Shown piece by piece: positions 1 to 12,354 of a DNA stretch of 12,354 nt. Under the pieces are notes generated by a model, which was given only the letters and a program-made list of their open reading frames with translations, was not told the DNA's origin and did no database searches. A program made the translations under genes and the position numbers. Numbering within the stretch: the stretch's first letter is position 1; each line of letters begins with the position of its first letter. The DNA comes from Octopus sinensis (taxonomy: Eukaryota), in the NCBI RefSeq assembly GCF_006345805.1, contig NW_021826656.1:1-12354 (forward strand), given 5' to 3'.

Positions 1-178
1 TCATATTTCCTCGCGATCTTTAATAAAGCCCCACCGACCATCTTGGTTAGAGGTCTCGCATCCATAAGCGTATTTTGGCGTTGAGATCTCCCGCAAGAAT
101 GGCCATCTCATTATCCTCAAAGAACTTCCTGATCACTTCAGGGTAGTTTTGAGGTCCTTCGAGTACATTCCACGATTG
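1..178 (-). pseudogene. Partial insert copy 0: non-LTR retrotransposon APE endonuclease fragment, cut by the window edge
   Basis: Matches 2455-2632 apart from indels; ORF 47..235 contains EVIRKFFEDNEMAILAGDLNAK. Confidence 0.75.
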
Positions 179-1827
179 TTTATTACATAATCTCAAGTAC
201 CCCCATATCATATGCAAGAAACTGTTTAATTGCATAATATATTACGCAATTTATTACTCAATTTATTACATAATCTCAAGTACCCCCATATTCTTACATC
301 TACGGACCATCCAAAATTGCATAATATATACGCAATTTATTACTCAATTTATTACATAATCTCAAGTACCCCCATATCATATGCAAGAAACTGTTAAATT
401 GCATAATATATTACGCAATTTATTACTCATTTATTACATATCTCAAGTACCCCCATATCATATGCAAGAAACTTGTTAAATTGCATAATATATTACGCAA
501 TTATTACTCAATTTATTACATAATCTCAAGTACCCCAATATCATATGCAAGAAACTAGTCAAATTGCATAATATATTACGCAATTTATTACTCAATTTAT
601 TACATAATCTCAAGTACCCCCATATCATATGTAAGAAACTTGTTAAATTGCATAATATATTACGCAATTTATTACTCAATTTATTACAATAATCTCAAGT
701 ACCCCCATATTCTTACATCTACGGACCATCCAAAATTGCATATATATTACGCTATTTATACTCAATTATTACATAATCTCAAGTACCCCCATATCATAAG
801 TAAGAAACTTGTTAAATTGCATAATATATTACGCAATTTATTACTCAATTTATTACATAATCTCAAGTACCCCCATATCATATGTAAGAAACTTGTTAAA
901 TTGCATAATATATTACGCAATTTATTACTCAATTTATTACATAATCTCAAGTACCCCCATATTCTTACATCTACGGACCATCCAAAATTGCATAATATAT
1001 TACGCTATTTATTACTCAATTTATTACATAATCTCAAGTACCCCCATATCATAAGTAAGAAACTTGTTAAATTGCATAATATATTACGCAATTTATTGCT
1101 CATTTATTACATAATCTCAAGTACCCCCATATCATATGCAAGAAACTTGTTTTAAATTGCATAATATATTACGCAATTTATTACTCAATTTATTACATAT
1201 CTCAAGTACCCCATATCATAAGTAAGAAACTTGTTAAATTGCATAATATATTACGCAATTTATTACTCAATTTATTACATAATCTCAAGTACCCCCATAT
1301 CATATGCAAGAAACTTGTGTTAAATTGCATAATATATTACGCAATTTATTACTCAATTTATTACATAATCTCAAGTACCCCAATATCATATGCAAGAAAC
1401 TAGTCAAATTGCATAAATATTACGCAATTTATTACTCAATTTATTACATAATCTCAAGTACCCCCATATCATATGTAAGAAACTTGTTAAATTGCATAAT
1501 ATATTACGCAATTTATTACTCAATTTATTACATAATCTCAAGTACCCCCATATTCTTACATCTACGGACCATCCAAAATTGCATAATATATTACGCTATT
1601 TATTACTCAATTTATTACATAATCTCAAGTACCCCCATATCATAAGTAAGAAACTTGTTAAATTGCATAATATATTACGCAATTTATTGCTCAATTTATT
1701 ACATAATCTCAAGTACCCCCATATCCTTACATCTACGGACCATCCAAAATTGCATAATATATTACGCAATTTATTACTCAATTTATTACATAATCTCAAG
1801 TACCCCCATATCATATGCAAGAAACTT
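179..1827. repeat. Satellite array 1, ~20 monomers of 84/87 bp
   Basis: Tandem copies of AAATTGCATAATATATTACGCAATTTATTACTCAATTTATTACATAATCTCAAGTACCCCCATAT followed by CATATG(C/T)AAGAAACTTGTT (A) or (T/C)CTTACATCTACGGACCATCCA (B). Confidence 0.98.
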
Positions 1828-2405
1828 TTTTATTATAGAAATATTAATATTCTTATGGACATTTCCAGTTCATCTTCTAAAGAATAGTTGTAATTATTTT
1901 CTTCGATAATTTTATATTTTGTTGTATCGACATTATCAAATAAGGGAAGCCTTCTATTGTTGGTATTAGCATCGATGTCATGTTTAATAATGACAGAATC
2001 TCCGATATTTATATTTTCTTCATCGTGGCTCCATTTTCTTTTGTTTTTCATTTTCTCGCCTGCTTTTGTGATGTTTTTCAAAACAGATTCACAATTTTCA
2101 GATGAAATATTATCCGAGTTTGTTTGATAACAAATTTCCGCGTTTTTCTTCAGCTTCAAAAGCCATTAGACCTTCAAGTTGTTTTGTATTTGGCAGAAAA
2201 TCACTTCCATAATTCATAAAAATGCTGAATGGTCTATGCTTTGTAGTTGCATGGACCGTCTTATTATAATCATACGTAATTTTTTAAAAAATGTCCACAT
2301 ATCTTCCAAAATTTCCATTCGATGCACTAGTCGAACATATTCAGTTTTTAATGGATTGGTTAAATCTAAAAATTCATAAATTAGTAATTACCTCTCCACT
2401 TGACC
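1828..2405 (-). pseudogene. C-terminal half of a Gypsy/Ginger-like DDE integrase/transposase (insert copy 1), intron-containing and disabled
   Basis: After removing 2366-2391 the minus strand reads GQVERFNQSIKN*ICSTSASNGNFGRYVDIF*KITYDYNKTVHATTKHRPFSIFMNYG...NIGDSVIIKHDIDANTNNRR. This fits the integrase pattern GxVERxNxT(L/I)K...YNxxxHxxTxxxPF...GDxV. It has two in-frame stops and lacks the N-terminal D,D residues. Confidence 0.8.
2366..2391 (-). other. Putative 26-nt spliceosomal intron (phase 2) in the integrase fragment
   Basis: Sequence GTAATTACTAATTTATGAATTTTTAG has a GT donor, a CTAAT branch-point-like motif and a TTTTTAG acceptor. Excision joins AG+A to give the Arg of VER and restores the frame into FNQSIK. 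Confidence 0.72.
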
Positions 2406-2632
2406 TCCACTGAAGCAGAAATGATTAAGTTCCTCAGAAGTCCAGACATTAAGGTCATATTTCCTCGCGATCTTTAATAAAGCCCGACACCATCTTGGTA
2501 GAGGTCTCGCATCCATAAGCGGTATTTTGGCGTTGAGATCTCCCGCAAGAATGGCCATCTCATTATCCTCAAAGAACTTCCTGATCACTTCAGGGTAGTT
2601 TCTGAGGTCCTTCGAGTACATTCCACCGATTG
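2406..2632 (-). pseudogene. Non-LTR retrotransposon (LINE, possibly Jockey/I-like) APE endonuclease fragment (insert copy 1)
   Basis: Consensus across copies is TIGGMYSKDLRNYPEVIRKFFEDNEMAILAGDLNAKNTAYGCETSNQDGRALLKIARKYDLNV. GDLNA(K) followed by NxxGxxL is typical of LINE ORF2 endonucleases. The N-terminal motifs and the SDH motif are absent. Confidence 0.8.
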
Positions 2633-4197
2633 TTTATTACATAATCTCAAGTACCCCCATATCATATGCAAGAAACTTGTTAATTGCATAATATATTACG
2701 CAATTATTACTCAATTTATTACATAATCTCAAGTACCCCCATATTCTTACATCTACGGACCATCCAAAATTGCATAATATATTACGCAATTTATTACTCA
2801 ATTTATTACATAATCTCAAGTACCCCCATATCATATGCAAGAAACTTGTTAAATTGCATAATATATTACGCAATTTATTACTCATTTTATTACATAATCT
2901 CAAGTACCCCCATATCATATGCAAGAAACTTGTTAAATTGCATAATATATTACGCAATTTATTACTCAATTTATTACATAATCTCAAGTACCCCAATATC
3001 ATATGCAAGAAACTAGTCAAATTGCATAATATATTACGCAATTTATTACTCAATTTATTACATAATCTCAAGTACCCCCATATCATATGCAAGAAACTTG
3101 TAAATTGCATAATATATTACGCAATTTATTACTCAATTTATTACATAATCTCAAGTACCCCCATATCCTTACATCTACGGACCATTCAAAATTGCATAAT
3201 ATATTACGCAATTTATTACTCAATTTATTACAAATCTCAAGTACCTCAATCATATGTAGAAAAACTTGTTAAATGCATAATATATTACGCAATTATTACT
3301 CAATTTATTACATAATCTCAAGTACCCCCATATCCTTACATCTACGGACCATCCAAAATTGCATAATATATTACGCAATTTATTACTCAATTTATTACAA
3401 AATCTCAAGTACCCCCATATCATATGTAAGAAACTTGTTAAATTGCATAATATATTACGCAATTTATTACTCAATTTATTACATAATCTCAAGTACCCCA
3501 ATATCATATGCAGAAACTTGTTAAATTGCATAATATATTACGCAATTTATTACTCATTTTATTACATAATCTCAAGAACCTCCATATCATATGTAAGAAA
3601 CTTGTTAAATTGCATAATATATTACGTAATTTATTACTCAATTTATTACATAATCTCAAGTACCCCCATATTCTTACATCTACGGACCATCCAAAATTGC
3701 ATAATATATTACGCTATTTATTACTCAATTTATTACATAATCTCAAGTACCCCCATATCATAAGTAAGAAACTTGTTAAATTGCATAATATATTACGCAA
3801 TTTATTACTCAATTTATTACATAATCTCAAGTACCCCCATATCATATGTAAGAAACTTGTTAAATTGCATAATATATTACGCAATTTATTACTCAATTTA
3901 TTACATAATCTCAAGTACCCCCATATTCTTACATCTACGGACCATCCAAAATTGCATAATATATACGCTATTTATTACTCAATTTATTACATAATCTCAG
4001 TACCCCCATATCATAAGTAAGAAACTTGTTAAATTGCATAATATATTACGCAATTTATTGCTCCATTTATTACATAATCTCAAGTACCCCCATATCCTAC
4101 ATCTACGGACCATCCAAAATTGCCATAATATATTACGCAATTTATTACTCAATTTATTACATAATCTCAAGTACCCCCATATCATATGCAAGAAATT
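2633..4197. repeat. Satellite array 2, ~19 monomers
   Basis: Same 84/87-bp monomers as array 1. Confidence 0.98.
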
Positions 4198-4777
4198 TTT
4201 TATTATAGAAATATTAATATTCTTATGGACATTTCCAGTTCATCTTCTAAAGAATAGTTGTAATTATTTTCTTCGATAATTTTATATTTTGTTGTATCGA
4301 CATTATCAAATAAGGGAAGCCTTCTATTGTTGGTATTAGCATCGATGTCATGTTTAATAATGACAGAATCTCCGATATTTATATTTTCTTCATCGTGGCT
4401 CCATTTTCTTTTGTTTTTCATTTTCTCGCCTGCTTTTGTGATGTTTTTCAAAGCAGATTCACAATTTTCACATGAAATATTATCCGAGTTTGTTTGATAA
4501 CAAATTTCCGCGTTTTCATCTTCAGCTTCAAAAGCCATTAGACCTTCAAGTTGTTTTGTATTTGGCAGAAAATCACTTCCATAATTCATAAAAATGCTGA
4601 ATGGTCTATGCTTTGTAGTTGCATGGACCGTCTTATTATAATCATACGTAATTTTTTAAAAAATGTCCACATATCTTCCAAAATTTCCATTCGATGCACT
4701 AGTCGAACATATTCAGTTTTTAATGGATTGGTTAAATCTAAAAATTCATAAATTAGTAATTACCTCTCCACTTGACC
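4198..4777 (-). pseudogene. Integrase C-terminal fragment (insert copy 2, best preserved), intron at 4738-4763
   Basis: ORF 4203..4589 (MNYGSDFLPN...NIGDSVIIKHD...) is the continuation of YNKTVHATTKHRPFSIF. Same stops and intron as copy 1. Confidence 0.8.
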
Positions 4778-5000
4778 TCCACTGAAGCAGAAATGATTAA
4801 GTTCCTCAGAAGTCCAGACATTAAGGTCATATTTCCTCGCGATCTTTAATAAAGCCCGACCATCTTGGTTAGAGGTCTCGCATCCATAAGCGGTATTTTG
4901 GCGTTGAGATCTCGCAAGAATGGCCATCTCATTATCCTCAAAGAACTTCCTGATCACTCAGGGTAGTTTCTGAGGTCCTTCGAGTACATTCCACCGATTG
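4778..5000 (-). pseudogene. LINE APE endonuclease fragment (insert copy 2)
   Basis: Near-identical to 2406-2632; ORF 4760..4957 has local frameshifts. Confidence 0.78.
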
Positions 5001-8000
5001 TTTATTACATAATCTCAAGTACCCCCATATCATATGCAAGAAACTTGTTAATTGCATAATATATTACGCAATTTATTACTCAATTTATTACATAATCTCA
5101 AGTACCCCCATATTATTTACATCTACGGACCATCCAAATTGCATAATATATTACGCAATTTATTACTCAATTTATTACATAATCTCAAGTACCCCCATAT
5201 CATATGCAAGAAACTTGTTAAATTGCATAATATATTACGCAATTTATTACTCATTTTATTACATAATCTCAAGTACCCCCATATCATATGCAAGAAACTT
5301 GTTAAATTGCATAATATATTACGCAATTTATTACTCAATTTATTACATAATCTCAAGTACCCCAATATCATATGCAAGAAACTAGTCAAATTGCATAATA
5401 TATTACGCAATTTATTACTCAATTTATTACATAATCTCAAGTACCCCCATATCATATGCAAGAAACTTGTTAAATTGCATAATATATTACGCAATTTATT
5501 ACTCAATTTATTACATAATCTCAAGTACCCCCATATCCTTACATCTACGGACCATTCAAAATTGCATAATATATTACGCAATTTATTACTCAATTTATTA
5601 CAAAATCTCAAGTACCTCCATATCATATGTAAGAAACTTGTTAAATTGCATAATATATTACGCAATTTATTACTCAATTTATTACATAATCTCAAGTACC
5701 CCCATATCCTTACATCTACGGACCATCCAAAATTGCATAATATATTACGCAATTTATTACTCAATTTATTACAAAATCTCAAGTACCCCCATATCATATG
5801 TAAGAAACTTGTTAAATTGCATAATATATTACGCAATTTATTACTCAATTTATTACATAATCTCAAGTACCCCAATATCATATGCAAGAAACTTGTTAAA
5901 TTGCATAATATATTACGCAATTTATTACTCATTTTATTACATAATCTCAAGAACCTCCATATCATATGTAAGAAACTTGTTAAATTGCATAATATATTAC
6001 GTAATTTATTACTCAATTTATTACATAATCTCAAGTACCCCCATATCCTTACATCTACGGACCATCCAAAATTGCATAATATATTACGCAATTTATTACT
6101 CAATTTATTACAAAATCTCAAGTACCCCCATATCATATGTAAGAAACTTGTTAAATTGCATAATATATTACGCAATTTATTACTCAATTTATTACATAAT
6201 CTCAAGTACCCCCATATCATATGCAAGAAACTTGTTAAATTGCATAATATATTACGCAATTTATTACTCATTTTATTACATAATCTCAAGTACCCCCATA
6301 TCATATGCAAGAAACTTGTTAAATTGCATAATATATTACGCAATTTATTACTCATTTATTACATAATCTCAAGTACCCCCATATCATATGCAGAAACTTG
6401 TTAAATTGCATAATATATTACGCAATTTATTACTCATTTATTACATAATCTCAAGTACCCCCATATCATATGCAAGAAACTTGTTAAATTGCATAATATA
6501 TTACGCAATTTATTACTCAATTTCTTACATAATCTCAAGTACCCCAATATCATATGCAAGAAACTAGTCAAATTGCATAATATATTACGCAATTTATTAC
6601 TCAATTTACATAATCTCAAGTACCCCCCCCATATCATATGCAAGAATTGTTAAATTGCATAATATATTACGCAATTTATTACTCAATTTATTATTACATA
6701 ATCTCAAGTACCCCCATATTCTTACATCTACGGACCATCCAAAATTGCATAATATATTACGCAATTTATTACTCAATTTATTACAAAATCTCAAGTACCC
6801 CCATATCATATGTAGAAACTTGTTAAATTGGATAATATATTACGCAATTTATTGCTCAATTTATTACATAATCTCAAGTACCCCCATATCCTTACATCTA
6901 CGGACCATCCAAAATTGCCTATATATTACGCAATTTATTACTCAATTATTACATAATCTCAAGTACCCCCATATCATATGTAAGAAACTTGTTAAATTGC
7001 ATAATATATTACGCAATTTATTACTCAATTTATTACATAATCTCAAGTACCCCCCCATATTCTTACATCTACTTTACGACCATCCAAATTGCATAATATA
7101 TTACGCTATTTATTACTCAATTTATTACATAATCTCAAGTACCCCCATATCATAAGTAAGAACTTGTTAAATTGCATAATATATTACGCAATTTATTACT
7201 CAATTTATTACATAATCTCAAGTACCCCCATATCATATGTAAGAACTTGTTAAATTGCATAATATATTACGCAATTTATTACTCAATTTATTACATAATC
7301 TCAAGTACCCCCCATATCTTACATCTACGGACCATCCAAAATTGCATAATATATTACGCTATTTATTACTCAATTTATTACATAATCTCAAGTACCCCCA
7401 TATCATAAGTAAGAAACTTGTTAAATTGCATAATATATTACGCAATTTATTGCTCATTTTATTACATAATCTCAAGTACCCCCATATCATATGCAAGAAC
7501 TTGTTAAATTGCATAATATATTACGCAATTTATTACTCAATTTATTACATAATCTCAAGTACCCCAATATCATAGTAAGAAACTTGTTATTGCATAATAT
7601 ATTACGCAATTATTACTCAATTTATACATAATCTCAAGTACCCCCATATCATATGCAAGAAACTTGTTAAATTGCATAATATATTACGCAATTTATTACT
7701 CAATTTATTACATAATCTCAAGTACCCCAATATCATATGCAAGAAACTAGTCAAATTGCATAATATATTACGCAATTTATTACTCAATTTATTACATAAT
7801 CTCAAGTACCCCCATATCATATGTAAGAAACTTGTTAAATTGCATAATATATTACGCAATTTATTACTCAATTTATTACATAATCTCAAGTACCCCCATA
7901 TTCTTACATCTACGGACCATCCAAAATTGCATAATATATTACGCTATTTATTACTCAATTTATTACATAATCTCAAGTACCCCCATATCATAAGTAAGAA

Positions 8001-8174
8001 ACTTGTTAAATTGCATAATATATTACGCAATTTATTGCTCAATTTATTACATAATCTCAATACCCCCATATCCTTACATCTACGGACCATCCAAAATTGC
8101 ATAATATATTACGCAATTTATTACTCAATTTATTACATAATCTCAAGTACCCCCATATCATATGCAAGAAACTT
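5001..8174. repeat. Satellite array 3, ~38 monomers (longest)
   Basis: Same monomers; accounts for the periodic ORFs 5052..6404 (+), 5123..6355 (-) and 5467..6366 (+). Confidence 0.98.
5303..5330. repeat. 28-bp imperfect palindrome found in essentially every full monomer (one example given)
   Basis: TAAATTGCATAATATATTACGCAATTTA is self-complementary except for one A/C mismatch. Confidence 0.95.
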
Positions 8175-8745
8175 TTTATTATAGAAATATTAATATTCTT
8201 ATGGACATTTCCAGTTCATCTTCTAAAGAATAGTTGTAATTATTTTCTTCGATAATTTTATTTTTGTTGTATCGACATTATCAATAAGGGAAGCCTTCTA
8301 TTGTTGGTATTAGCATCGATGTCATGTTTAATAATGACAGAATCTCCGATATTTATATTTTCTTCATCGTGGCTCCATTTTCTTTTGTTTTCATTTTCTC
8401 GCCTGCTTTTGTGATGTTTTTCAAAGCAGATTCACAATTTCACATGAAATATTATCCGAGTTTGTTTGATAACAAATTTCCGCGTTTTCATCTCAGCTTC
8501 AAAAGCCATTAGACCTTCAAGTTGTTTTGTATTTGGCAGAAAATCACTTCCATAATTCATAAAATGCTGAATGGTCTATGCTTTAGTTGCATGGACCGTC
8601 TTATTATAATCATACGTAATTTTTTAAAAAATGTCCACATATCTTCCAAAATTTCCATTCGATGCACTAGTCGAACATATTCAGTTTTTAATGGATTGGT
8701 TAAATCTAAAAATTCATAAATTAGTAATTACCTCTCCACTTGACC
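8175..8745 (-). pseudogene. Integrase C-terminal fragment (insert copy 3), intron at 8706-8731
   Basis: Near-identical to copies 1 and 2 with several private small deletions. Confidence 0.78.
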
Positions 8746-8972
8746 TCCACTGAAGCAGAAATGATTAAGTTCCTCAGAAGTCCAGACATTAAGGTCATAT
8801 TTCCTCGCGATCTTTAATAAAGCCCGACCATCTTGGTTAGAGGTCTCGCATCCATAAGCGGTATTTTTGGCGTTGAGATCTCCCGCAAGAATGGCCATCT
8901 CATTATCCTCAAAGAACTTCCTGATCACTTCAGGGTAGTTTCTGAGGTCCTTCGAGTACATTCCACCGATTG
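8746..8972 (-). pseudogene. LINE APE endonuclease fragment (insert copy 3, best preserved)
   Basis: ORF 8728..8961 reads MYSKDLRNYPEVIRKFFEDNEMAILAGDLNAKNTAYGCETSNQDGRALLKIARKYDLNVWTSEELNHFCFSG-GQVER without interruption. Confidence 0.8.
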
Positions 8973-10553
8973 TTTATTACATAATCTCAAGTACCCCCAT
9001 ATCATATGCAAGAAACTTGTTTAATTGCATAATATATTACGCAATTTATTACTCAATTTATTACATAATCTCAAGTACCCCCATATTCTTACATCTACGG
9101 ACCATCCAAAATTGCATAATATATTACGCAATTTATTACTCAATTTATTACATAATCTCAAGTACCCCCATATCATATGCAAGAAACTTGTTAAATTGCA
9201 TAATATATTACGCAATTTATTACTCATTTTATTACATAATCTCAAGTACCCCCATATCATATGCAAGAAACTGTTAAATTGCATAATAATTACGCAATTA
9301 TTACTCAATTTATTACATAATCTCAAGTACCCAATATCATATGCAAGAAACTAGTCAAATTGCATAATATATTACGCAATTTTATACTCAATTTATTACA
9401 TAATCTCAAGTACCCCCATATCATATGCAAGAAACTTGTTAAATTGCATAATATATTACGCAATTTATTACTCAATTTATTACATAATCTCAAGTACCCC
9501 CATATCCTTACATCTACGGACCATTCAAAATGCAATAATATATTACGCAATTTATTACTCAATTTATTACAAAATCTCAAGTAACACCTCCATATCATAT
9601 GTAAGAAACTTGTTAAATTGCATAATATATTACGCAATTTATTACTCAATTTATTACATAATCTCAAGTACCCCCATATCCTTACATCTACGGACCATCC
9701 AAAATTGCATAATATATTACGCAATTTATTACTCAATTTATTACAAAATCTCAAGTACCCCCATATCATATGTAAGAAACTTGTTAAATTGCATAATATA
9801 TTACGCAATTTATTACTCAATTTATTACATAATCTCAAGTACCCCAATATCATATGCAAGAAACTTGTTAAATTGCATAATATATTACGCAATTTATTAC
9901 TCATTTTATTACATAATCTCAAGAACCTCCATATCATATGTAAGAAACTTGTTAAATGCATATATATTACGTAATTTATTACTCAATTTATTACATAATC
10001 TCAAGTACCCCCATATTCTTACATCTACGGACCATCCAAAATTGCATAATAATTACGCTATTTATTACTCAATTTATTACATAATCTCAAGTACCCCCAT
10101 ACATATCATAAGTAAGAAACTTGTTAAATGCATAATATATTACGCAATTTATTACTCAATTTATTACATATCTCAAGTACCCCCGTACCCCCATATCATA
10201 TGTAAGAAACTTGTTTAAATTGCATAATATATTACGCAATTTATTACTCAATTTTATTACATAATCTCAAGTACCCCCATATTCTTACATCTACGGACCA
10301 TCCAAAATTGCATAATATATTACGCTATTTATTACTCATTTATTACATAATCTCAGTACCCCCATATCATAAGTAAGAAACTTGTTAAATTGCATAATAT
10401 ATTACGCAATTTATTGCTCAATTTATTACATAATCTCAAGTACCCCCATATCCTTACATCTACGGACCATCCAAATTGCATATATATTACGCAATTTATT
10501 ACTCAATTTATTACATAATCTCAAGTACCCCCATATCATATGGCAAGAAACTT
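8973..10553. repeat. Satellite array 4, ~19 monomers (same variant order as array 2)
   Basis: Same monomers; diagnostic variants occur in the same order as in 2633-4197. Confidence 0.98.
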
Positions 10554-11134
10554 TTTTATTATAGAAATATTAATATTCTTATGGACATTTCCAGTTCATC
10601 TTCTAAAGAATAGTTGTAATTAATTTTTTCGATAATTTTTATATTTTGTTGTTATCGACATTATCAAATAAGGGAAGCCTCTTTGTTGGTATTAGCATCG
10701 ATGTCATGTTTATAATAATGACAGAATCTCCGATATTTATATTTTCTCTTCATCGTGCTCCATTTTCTTTTTGTTTTTCATTTTCTCGCTGCTTTTGTGA
10801 TGTTTTTCAAAGCAGATTCACAATTTTCACATGAAATATTATCCGAGTTTGTTTGATAACAAATTTCCCGCGTTTTTCATCTTCAGCTTCAAAGCCATTA
10901 GACCTTCAAGTTGTTTTGTATTTGGCAGAAAATCACTTCCATAATTCATAAAAAATGCTGAATGGTCTATGCTTTGTAGTTGCATGGACCGTTATTATAA
11001 TCATACGTAATTTTTTAAAAAATGTCCACATATCTTCCAAAATTTCCATCGTGCACTAGTCGAACATATTCAGTTTTTAATGGATTGGTTAAATCTAAAA
11101 ATTCATAAATTAGTAATTACCTCTCCACTTGACC
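10554..11134 (-). pseudogene. Integrase C-terminal fragment (insert copy 4), intron at 11095-11120
   Basis: Near-identical to the other copies but with more indels; the intron sequence is identical. Confidence 0.76.
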
Positions 11135-11360
11135 TCCACTGAAGCAGAAATGATTAAGTTCCTCAGAAGTCCAGACTTAAGGTCATATTTCCTCGCGATC
11201 TTTAATAAAGCCCGACCATCTTGGGTTAGAGTCTCGCATCCAAGCGGTATTTTTTGGCGTTGAGATCTCCGCGAAAGAATGGCCATCTCATTATCCTCAA
11301 AGAACTTCCTGATCACTTCAGGGTAGTTTCTGAGGTCCTTCGAGTACATTCCACCGATTG
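11135..11360 (-). pseudogene. LINE APE endonuclease fragment (insert copy 4)
   Basis: Near-identical to the other copies; ORF 11110..11418 shows frameshifted pieces (TIGGMYSKD..., QDGRALLKIARKYDL). Confidence 0.76.
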
Positions 11361-12354
11361 TTTTATTACATATCTCAAGTACCCCCATATCATATGCAAG
11401 AAACTTGTTTACTTGCATAATATATTACGCAATTTATTACTCAATTTATTACATAATCTCAAGTACCCCCGCCCCAATTCTTACATCTACGGACCATCCC
11501 AAATTGCATAATATATTACGCAATTTATTACTCAATTTATTACATAATCTCAAGTACCCCCATATCATATGCAAACTTGTTAAATTGCATAATATATTAC
11601 GCAATTTATTACTCATTTTATTACATAATCTCAAGTACCCCCCATATCATATGCAAGAAACTTGTTTAAATTGCATAATATATTACGCAATTTATTACTC
11701 AATTTTAACATAATCTCAAGTACCCCAATATCATATGCAAGAAACTAGTCAAATTGCATATATATTACGCAATTTATTATCCATTTATTACATAATCTCA
11801 AGTACCCCCATATCATATGCAAGAAACTTGTTAAATGCATAATATATTACGCATTTATTACTCAATTTATTACATAATCTCAGTACCCCCATATCCTTAC
11901 ATCTACGGACCATTCAAAATTGCATAATATATTACGCAATTTATTACTCAATTTATTACAAAATCTCAAGTACCTCCATATCATATGTAAGAAACTTGTT
12001 AAATTGCATATATATTACGCAATTTATTACTCAATTATTACATAATCTCAAGTACCCCCATATCCTTACATCTACGGACCATCCAAAATTGCATAATATA
12101 TTACGCAATTTATTACTCAATTTATTACAAATCTCAAGTACCCCCATATCATATGTAAGAAACTTTTAAATTGCATAATATATTACGCAATTTATTACTC
12201 AATTTATTACATAATCTCAAGTACCCCAATATCATATGCAAGAAACCTTGTTAAATTGCATAATATATTACGCAATTTATTACTCATTTTATTACATAAT
12301 CTCAAGAACCTCCATATCATATGTAAGAAACTTGTTAAATTGCATAATATATTA
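11361..12354. repeat. Satellite array 5, ~12 monomers, runs off the window end
   Basis: Same monomers; the first 12 variants follow the same order as in arrays 2, 3 and 4. Confidence 0.98.

What the first reader, a model, noticed from the sequence alone, without database searches (positions are those of the whole stretch)
2366..2391. Hidden 26-nt intron splitting the integrase catalytic-Glu motif (GQVER|FNQSIK)
Seen: the ORF track stops at GQVER*, but the stop lies inside GTAATTACTAATTTATGAATTTTTAG. This 26-mer is identical in all four full copies (2366-2391, 4738-4763, 8706-8731, 11095-11120). Splicing at GT..AG gives GQVERFNQSIKN and puts the downstream YNKTVHATTKHRPF in frame. Known: GxxERxNxTLK holds the Glu of the DDE triad in Gypsy-type integrases; LTR retrotransposons normally lack introns, whereas Ginger DNA transposons with Gypsy-like integrases can carry them; introns of about 25 nt occur in only a few lineages such as microsporidia and Paramecium-like ciliates. 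Inference: the source element is an intron-bearing Ginger-like DNA transposon in a tiny-intron eukaryote, and this piece was copied from DNA or unspliced RNA rather than from spliced mRNA.
Basis: partly seen in the sequence, partly recalled or inferred. Interest (0 to 1): 0.75.

Follow-up and report, generated by a model that had tools for sequence, protein, structure and literature searches.

The report
Parasite transposon with tiny introns
The 26 bases are a GT-AG insert, almost certainly a real intron, in a broken piece of a cut-and-paste transposon that likely belongs to a dicyemid parasite sequenced along with its host; many related transposon families carry equally tiny inserts at the same spots, probably gained after the elements entered this parasite.

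Summary
Confirmed. The 26-mer lies at all four places and removing it restores the integrase motif. The four copies are tandem duplicates, so their identity proves nothing. The support comes from outside the window. The genome holds TIR-bounded copies (TGT…ACA, 5-bp target duplication in 16 of 17), and 55 of 80 loci examined carry a 22–35-nt GT/GC-AG insert at this same codon, in 22 different sequences. 140 of 144 homologues have no gap there. Exon-exon joins of sister families appear in three public runs of unrecorded kind; none was seen for this family. The element is Ginger2/TDD-like, usually with four tiny introns. It sits only on unplaced contigs whose ordinary genes also have ~27-nt introns, beside a dicyemid-type 18S. 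Correction: only about 15 nt upstream of the intron are transposon; the rest is a LINE endonuclease piece, and the dead chimera was amplified inside an 84-bp satellite. Other Ginger lineages in the genome have 0 or 1 intron and named microsporidian relatives, which suggests separate arrivals and intron gain. The scan had already noted dicyemid tiny introns on other pieces of this genome and Ginger2-like elements in other genomes; no look-alike of this stretch.

The parts
2366..2391 (-). 26-nt phase-2 spliceosomal-type intron (intron 4 of the transposase gene), copy 1
4738..4763 (-). same intron, copy 2
8706..8731 (-). same intron, copy 3
11095..11120 (-). same intron, copy 4
2392..2406 (-). 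last ~15 nt of transposase exon 4 (GQVE plus two bases of the Arg codon), with the catalytic Glu
   Evidence: match to full element L004 starts here
1822..2365 (-). transposase last exon to just past the stop codon; two internal stops; no TIR; ends in a 6-nt overlap with the satellite
   Evidence: 5-7 substitutions against L004 over 575 nt
2403..2634 (-). internal ~230-nt piece of a LINE endonuclease (APE) gene; overlaps the transposon piece by 3-4 nt and the satellite by 2-4 nt
   Evidence: PF14529, E 2.3e-7 for copy 3; 98-99% to 9 copies elsewhere
4192..5002 (-). chimeric LINE-Ginger insert, copy 2 (approximate ends)
8168..8974 (-). chimeric insert, copy 3 (approximate ends)
10548..11363 (-). 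chimeric insert, copy 4 (approximate ends; most indels)
1..180 (-). LINE part of a fifth insert, cut by the contig end
2635..4197 (.). 84/87-bp satellite block, about 19 monomers; with the insert it forms a ~2.37-kb higher-order unit (other blocks 181-1827, 5003-8173 with 38 monomers, 8975-10553, 11364-12354)

Best explanation
The 26-mer is a GT-AG insert, almost certainly a spliceosomal intron, in the transposase gene of a compact TIR-bounded DNA transposon of Ginger2/TDD type, likely from a dicyemid parasite whose DNA was assembled with its host. Shown: full elements are 1.75-2.2 kb, start TGTNR, end ACA, have ~40-bp TIRs and 5-bp AT-rich target duplications, and encode one H2C2 + DDE protein of about 400-430 aa once the inserts are removed. 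Inferred: the host spliceosome removes four 22-35-nt introns; the protein cuts the element out at its TIRs and pastes it with a 5-nt stagger; because the element moves as DNA its introns are inherited and drift in sequence while position and GT/AG ends are kept; any retained intron breaks the frame, so splicing gates transposase output. The window copy is dead. Shown: a LINE endonuclease piece and the 3' third of a stop-carrying transposon copy are joined to each other and to an 84-bp satellite by 2-6-nt overlaps, without TSD or poly(A), replacing 38 nt of a monomer that include its 28-bp near-palindrome. Inferred: one DNA-level repair or deletion event, then tandem amplification of satellite plus insert.
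For: TIR/TSD: 7 of 7 two-ended family-A copies have a 5-bp TSD; 9 of 10 further distinct two-ended copies of other families too. Pfam rve and Integrase_H2C2 on separate exons. Removing four inserts from L084 gives 431 codons with one stop; L140 (TIRs, TSD) gives 402 aa without stop, L149 394 aa, while the longest unspliced frames are 192 and 129 aa. Same positions in many families with unrelated intron sequences: 22 distinct at this site, median 26.5 nt, all three length classes modulo 3. 140 of 144 homologues ungapped at the site; P0004 reads GQVERFNQSIK. Exon-exon joins at introns 3 and 4 in loose ends of contigs from runs X2, X5, X6, one matching family-B flanks in 30 of 30 letters. Host: all listed element hits are on unplaced contigs, none on C1-C30 (41, 64 and 150 listed hits); actin genes on such contigs have 21 introns of 24-34 nt, median 27; a 1667-nt 18S matches two published dicyemid primers with 2 and 0 mismatches against 7-9 for six long host-type copies. 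Chimera: junction pattern found 4 times, only in this contig; junctions.
Against: No spliced join was seen for family A itself, and no joint table lists a 25/26-nt GT..AG skip. Unspliced contigs span the intron in the same runs. The window contig has no host gene, so its owner is inferred from shared repeats. Primer specificity was tested only against host-type 18S. TSD is 5 bp, whereas metazoan Ginger2 were described with 4 bp. No named Ginger2 reference was in my trees.
Confidence: 0.86

Rival explanations
1. The 26-mer is not an intron but a chance insertion or excision footprint in a dead integrase.
For: The window copy is dead anyway; no spliced read for this family.
Against: 22 unrelated sequences at the same codon and phase keep GT/GC and AG; three more shared positions; intact ORFs appear only after removal.
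Confidence: 0.02
2. The integrase piece comes from a Gypsy-type LTR retrotransposon or a Polinton.
For: rve and H2C2 domains are shared with these groups.
Against: Full copies are about 2 kb between TIRs with 5-bp TSDs and hold only the transposase gene.
Confidence: 0.02
3. The element is as described, but the host is another tiny-intron organism (myxozoan, ciliate, microsporidian) or the large host itself.
For: The window contig has no marker gene; nearest named homologues are microsporidian; myxobolids also have 22-27-nt introns (PMC13644364, passages).
Against: Element-bearing contigs carry intron-rich, standard-code actin-family genes; the short 18S fits dicyemid primers; no hit on C1-C30.
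Confidence: 0.08
4. The chimera arose through RNA: a LINE reverse transcriptase switched template from its own RNA to an unspliced transposon transcript.
For: One partner is a LINE; unspliced forms exist in possible RNA runs; the 3' end lies in an A-rich stretch just past the stop codon.
Against: The LINE piece is internal, not a 3' end; there is no TSD and no poly(A) tail; 38 nt of satellite are lost; all three junctions show microhomology.
Confidence: 0.12

Closest known systems
Ginger2/Tdd DNA transposons, esp. TDD-4 and TDD-5 (Bao, Kapitonov, Jurka 2010, PMC2836005; parts 1-2 of 5 and passages read)
   Same: TGTNR termini, TIRs, H2C2 + DDE transposase, AT-rich targets, no OTU/Ulp1 tail, 5-bp TSD as in TDD-4/5.
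   Different: Smaller (1.75-2.2 kb against 2.7-6.7 kb for autonomous ones in their Table 2), TIRs ~40 bp, 5-bp TSD in an animal (4 bp reported for metazoan Ginger2), 22-35-nt introns.
Ginger1 (same paper)
   Same: Introns in the transposase gene (0-4), some positions shared between families.
   Different: No CCGG/CCGT 4-bp TSD, no OTU/Ulp1 domain, no GPY/F motif seen.
KRBA2/SCAND3-type integrases (PMC3575427, passages) and microsporidian proteins P0008, P0016, P0017, P0019
   Same: Sources name the relatives 'KRAB-A domain-containing protein 2' or 'SCAN domain-containing protein 3'; that paper derives both genes from GINGER2.
   Different: Here the genes are mobile, multi-copy and intron-bearing; the microsporidian relatives are known to me only as proteins.
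Dicyemid miniature introns (PMC2222250, PMC6543705, PMC6736024, PMC13644364; passages)
   Same: Mean 26.2 nt and median 27 nt reported; median 26-27 nt here in transposon and actin genes.
   Different: The passages read concern host genes; none mentions transposon introns.

Membership tests
Ginger2/Tdd | Terminal inverted repeats with TGTNR termini | tested here: met
   TGTGA/TGTCA/TGTCG ends; ~41-bp TIR in family A
Ginger2/Tdd | 4-bp (metazoan) or 5-bp (TDD-4/5) TSD, AT-rich target | tested here: met
   5 bp in 16 of 17 distinct two-ended copies; fits TDD, not the metazoan 4 bp
Ginger2/Tdd | H2C2 zinc finger plus rve DDE core | tested here: met
   rve E 8.8e-10; Integrase_H2C2 E 6.6e-4 (below curated cut-off); D(35)E spacing read from L004
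Ginger2/Tdd | Lacks YPYY and GPY/F motifs and RT/RNase H | tested here: met
   By eye on alignments and Pfam of P0004; a degenerate SH3-like tail without GP is present (motif recalled)
Ginger2/Tdd | Groups with named Ginger2/TDD transposases in a tree | not testable with these tools
   No named Ginger2 reference was retrievable; only indirect support from KRBA2/SCAND3-like names
Ginger1 | CCGG/CCGT 4-bp TSD | tested here: not met
Ginger1 | C-terminal OTU or Ulp1 domain | tested here: not met
   No Pfam hit on the last exon or on P0004
Gypsy LTR retrotransposon | LTRs, gag, RT around the integrase | tested here: not met
   Elements end in TIRs within 2.2 kb
Spliceosomal intron | GT(GC)-AG ends and removal restores a conserved frame | tested here: met
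Spliceosomal intron | Absent from mature RNA | tested here: inconclusive
   Joins seen for sister families in runs of unrecorded kind; none for family A
Dicyemida (host) | Dicyemid 18S and intron-rich genes with ~27-nt introns on the element-bearing contigs | tested here: inconclusive
   Primer match on C1618 and tiny introns on shared contigs; no tree with named dicyemid sequences

The most novel reading that the evidence does not exclude
Ginger2-like transposons entered this parasite at least twice from outside, probably by exchange with microsporidia, arrived without introns and then gained host-sized ones: one lineage has 0, one has 1, one has 4 with a fifth in some families. The introns would then be born tiny rather than shrunk, and the families form a dated series of intron gain in an animal with miniature introns.
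Probability: 0.4. Interest if true: 0.65.

Novelty: new member of a known kind. Interest (0 to 1): 0.42.

Why it matters
Intron-bearing Gingers and tiny dicyemid introns are each known, so the single intron is explained. The value lies in the family. Dozens of transposon copies with 0, 1, 4 or 5 introns of 22-35 nt in one genome allow a test of whether introns in this lineage are born at host size and how fast they are gained or lost. The tree rejects one clade for all of them and puts named microsporidian proteins next to two groups, which points to transfer between parasites. Practically, relatives on these contigs are named as octopus KRBA2-like genes by public sources, so they are probably parasite transposases filed under the host.

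Tried and rejected
No RNA holder listed by the run search; not used either way. No exact exon-exon pattern of family A in G000; the assembly may be incomplete, so this is weak. The ESM Atlas gave no result. A first peptide clustering chained partial copies together, so families were counted by distinct intron sequence instead. The LG+C20 careful trees did not finish; careful trees are LG+G4. The upstream ORF as integrase: rejected. Identity of the four copies as a sign of selection: rejected. A conserved branch-point motif: the ACTAAT in this intron is not kept in sister families. A tRNA or Rfam scan of the window was not run. PMC12953835 and PMC7710466 (passages, one supplement search) gave only universal 18S primers. 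Aligner calls at poorly conserved C-terminal positions (around codons 293-349) were treated as artefacts and not counted as introns.

Full report
Observation. The window is a whole 12,354-nt contig (C3127) of a 2.72-Gb assembly. It is an 84/87-bp satellite interrupted by four full and one cut ~810-bp insert. The 26-nt GT..AG stretch is present and identical at the four stated places on the minus strand. It lies after two bases of the Arg codon that follows the catalytic Glu. The four inserts differ by 0-5 substitutions, so they record one event.

The insert is a chimera. The frame upstream of GQVER matches the LINE endonuclease family PF14529 (E 2.3e-7) and is 98-99% identical to nine copies elsewhere; one of them lies in a 428-codon frame followed by an RT-like frame (RT label recalled from motifs). 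The transposon part begins about 15 nt before the intron and ends just past the stop codon. Overlaps at the junctions are 2-4 nt (satellite/LINE), 3-4 nt (LINE/transposon) and 6 nt (transposon/satellite); 38 nt of the monomer, including its 28-bp near-palindrome, are missing; there is no TSD. The LINE/transposon junction occurs 4 times in the genome, all in this contig. The piece shares two stop codons with copy L004, so its source was already dead. A DNA-level repair or deletion event followed by tandem amplification is my inference.

The source element. L004 is a 1,754-bp element with 41-bp TIRs; 7 of 7 two-ended family-A copies have a 5-bp TSD. A second family, 72% identical around the site, has a different 25-nt GT..AG insert at the same codon. 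Its full copy L084 (1,806 bp) yields 431 codons with one stop after four inserts are removed; exons match rve and, weakly, Integrase_H2C2. TIR search over the census set gave 13 rows, 10 of them further distinct copies, 9 with a 5-bp TSD.

Intron census. A protein search with one exon gave 151 matches from 150 scored of 1,649 candidates. I analysed 80 loci: the 30 best, 40 that I picked across the score range, and 10 from earlier searches (74 distinct). A script aligned homologue P0004 to each, allowing 16-70-nt GT/GC-AG gaps. At P0004 codon 239, phase 2: 55 with intron, 10 degenerate, 10 none, 5 not covered. Other recurrent sites: 76/0 (34 loci), 116/0 (40), 158/0 (51), 356/2 (7), 137/2 (5). 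Distinct sequences per main site number 18-23, medians 26-26.5 nt, mean inner similarity 0.39 at the focal site. L140 gives a 402-aa frame with D, D, E after removing three inserts and has none at 116. Among 166 database proteins, 144 cover the site and 140 have no gap. Of 80 metagenome loci, 70 cover the site and none has an intron call at codons 238-240.

Splicing. No RNA run was listed. Contigs of runs X2, X5, X6 (kind not on record, another organism label) show loose ends that read across intron 4 or intron 3 without the insert; one equals family-B flanks in 30 of 30 letters at depth 3. The same runs also hold unspliced contigs. The six loose-end rows shown for the likely DNA run X1 contain no exon-exon join; 26 rows were hidden. 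This is supportive, not decisive.

Host. All listed hits are on unplaced contigs, none on C1-C30. Five actin genes on unplaced contigs have 21 introns of 24-34 nt, median 27; three of those contigs carry the element. C2292 holds family A, the LINE donor and an actin-related gene with 23-25-nt introns. The satellite lies next to a gene with 27- and 24-nt introns on C9499. A 1,667-nt 18S matches primers used for dicyemid 18S (PMC6778094, passages and one supplement row) with 2 and 0 mismatches; six long copies have 7-9. Dicyemid introns average 26.2 nt (PMC2222250) with median 27 (PMC6543705); among animals only myxobolids match this (PMC13644364); all three read as passages. I put the dicyemid call at about 0.9.

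Evolution. In an LG+G4 tree of 38 rows chosen from 111, the 12 four-intron representatives form a clade (100/94), sister to a group with a Pseudoloma protein; ten loci without the focal intron belong to other groups, with 0 introns or one at 137/2, near Dictyocoela proteins; one clade for all 18 genome rows is rejected (p-AU 8e-51). Five of these ten also show TIRs by script. Against a simple story: metagenome locus L206 is a close relative with five introns at other positions, one 8 nt from the focal site; it nested inside the four-intron clade in three trees, though holding it outside is not rejected (p-AU 0.24). P0004, P0009 and P0028 are unnamed and may be spliced transcripts. Direction of transfer and gain versus loss are therefore not shown. 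Microsporidia exchange transposons with animals (PMC4202319, abstract and passages), carry Ginger (PMC5751038, passages) and have been reported from a dicyemid (PMC8262960, passage and reference).

Comparison and novelty. The element meets every Ginger2/Tdd feature I could test (PMC2836005, parts 1-2 of 5 and passages) and fails Ginger1 and LTR tests; placement against named references was not testable. GingerRoot has 6-bp TSDs (PMC6839031, passages). Searches for 'Ginger2' with 'Dicyema' gave 0 papers; searches listed none on dicyemid transposon introns among the rows shown. Repbase and subscription journals were not searched, and supplements other than those named were not seen. Verdict: a correct and well-supported observation, a new member of a known superfamily, with a testable intron-gain series; interest 0.42.

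Noticed in passing
G000:C12878 (L198, L199): The same 84-bp satellite alternates with a 3.2-kb non-LTR retrotransposon-like insert ending in an A-run; four copies are 99% identical. A second higher-order repeat made of satellite plus transposon.
   Followed up: partly
L206:220-2200 (metagenome contig): Close Ginger relative with a TGTCA 5' end and five introns (31, ~256, 28, 44, 36 nt) at positions not used by the dicyemid families; host unknown.
   Followed up: partly
L140 (G000:C8459): Apparently intact 1,992-bp element with TIRs, 5-bp TSD and a 402-aa spliced frame; lacks the intron at codon 116 that sister families have (precise loss or later gain).
   Followed up: partly
window satellite monomer, e.g. 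5220-5303: Each monomer holds a 28-bp near-perfect AT-rich palindrome; the insert replaces exactly the part that contains it. The satellite also lies near the ends of C9499, C2502 and C10167.
   Followed up: partly
L037, L041, L042, L046, L047: Most two-ended family-A copies are 1.0-1.2-kb internal deletions; L043 and L045 carry nested insertions near the start codon.
   Followed up: partly
L131, L153 (codon 239), L139 (codon 116): GC-AG donors among the tiny transposon introns.
   Followed up: no
L066-L070 (C8911, C12602, C6094, C9737, C8460): Several divergent actin genes with 3 or 5 tiny introns; may be paralogues or more than one parasite species in the assembly.
   Followed up: no
P0001, P0031, P0032: Public sources name these transposase relatives as octopus proteins; P0032 equals L158 over the aligned core, and P0001 reads through two introns.
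   Followed up: partly
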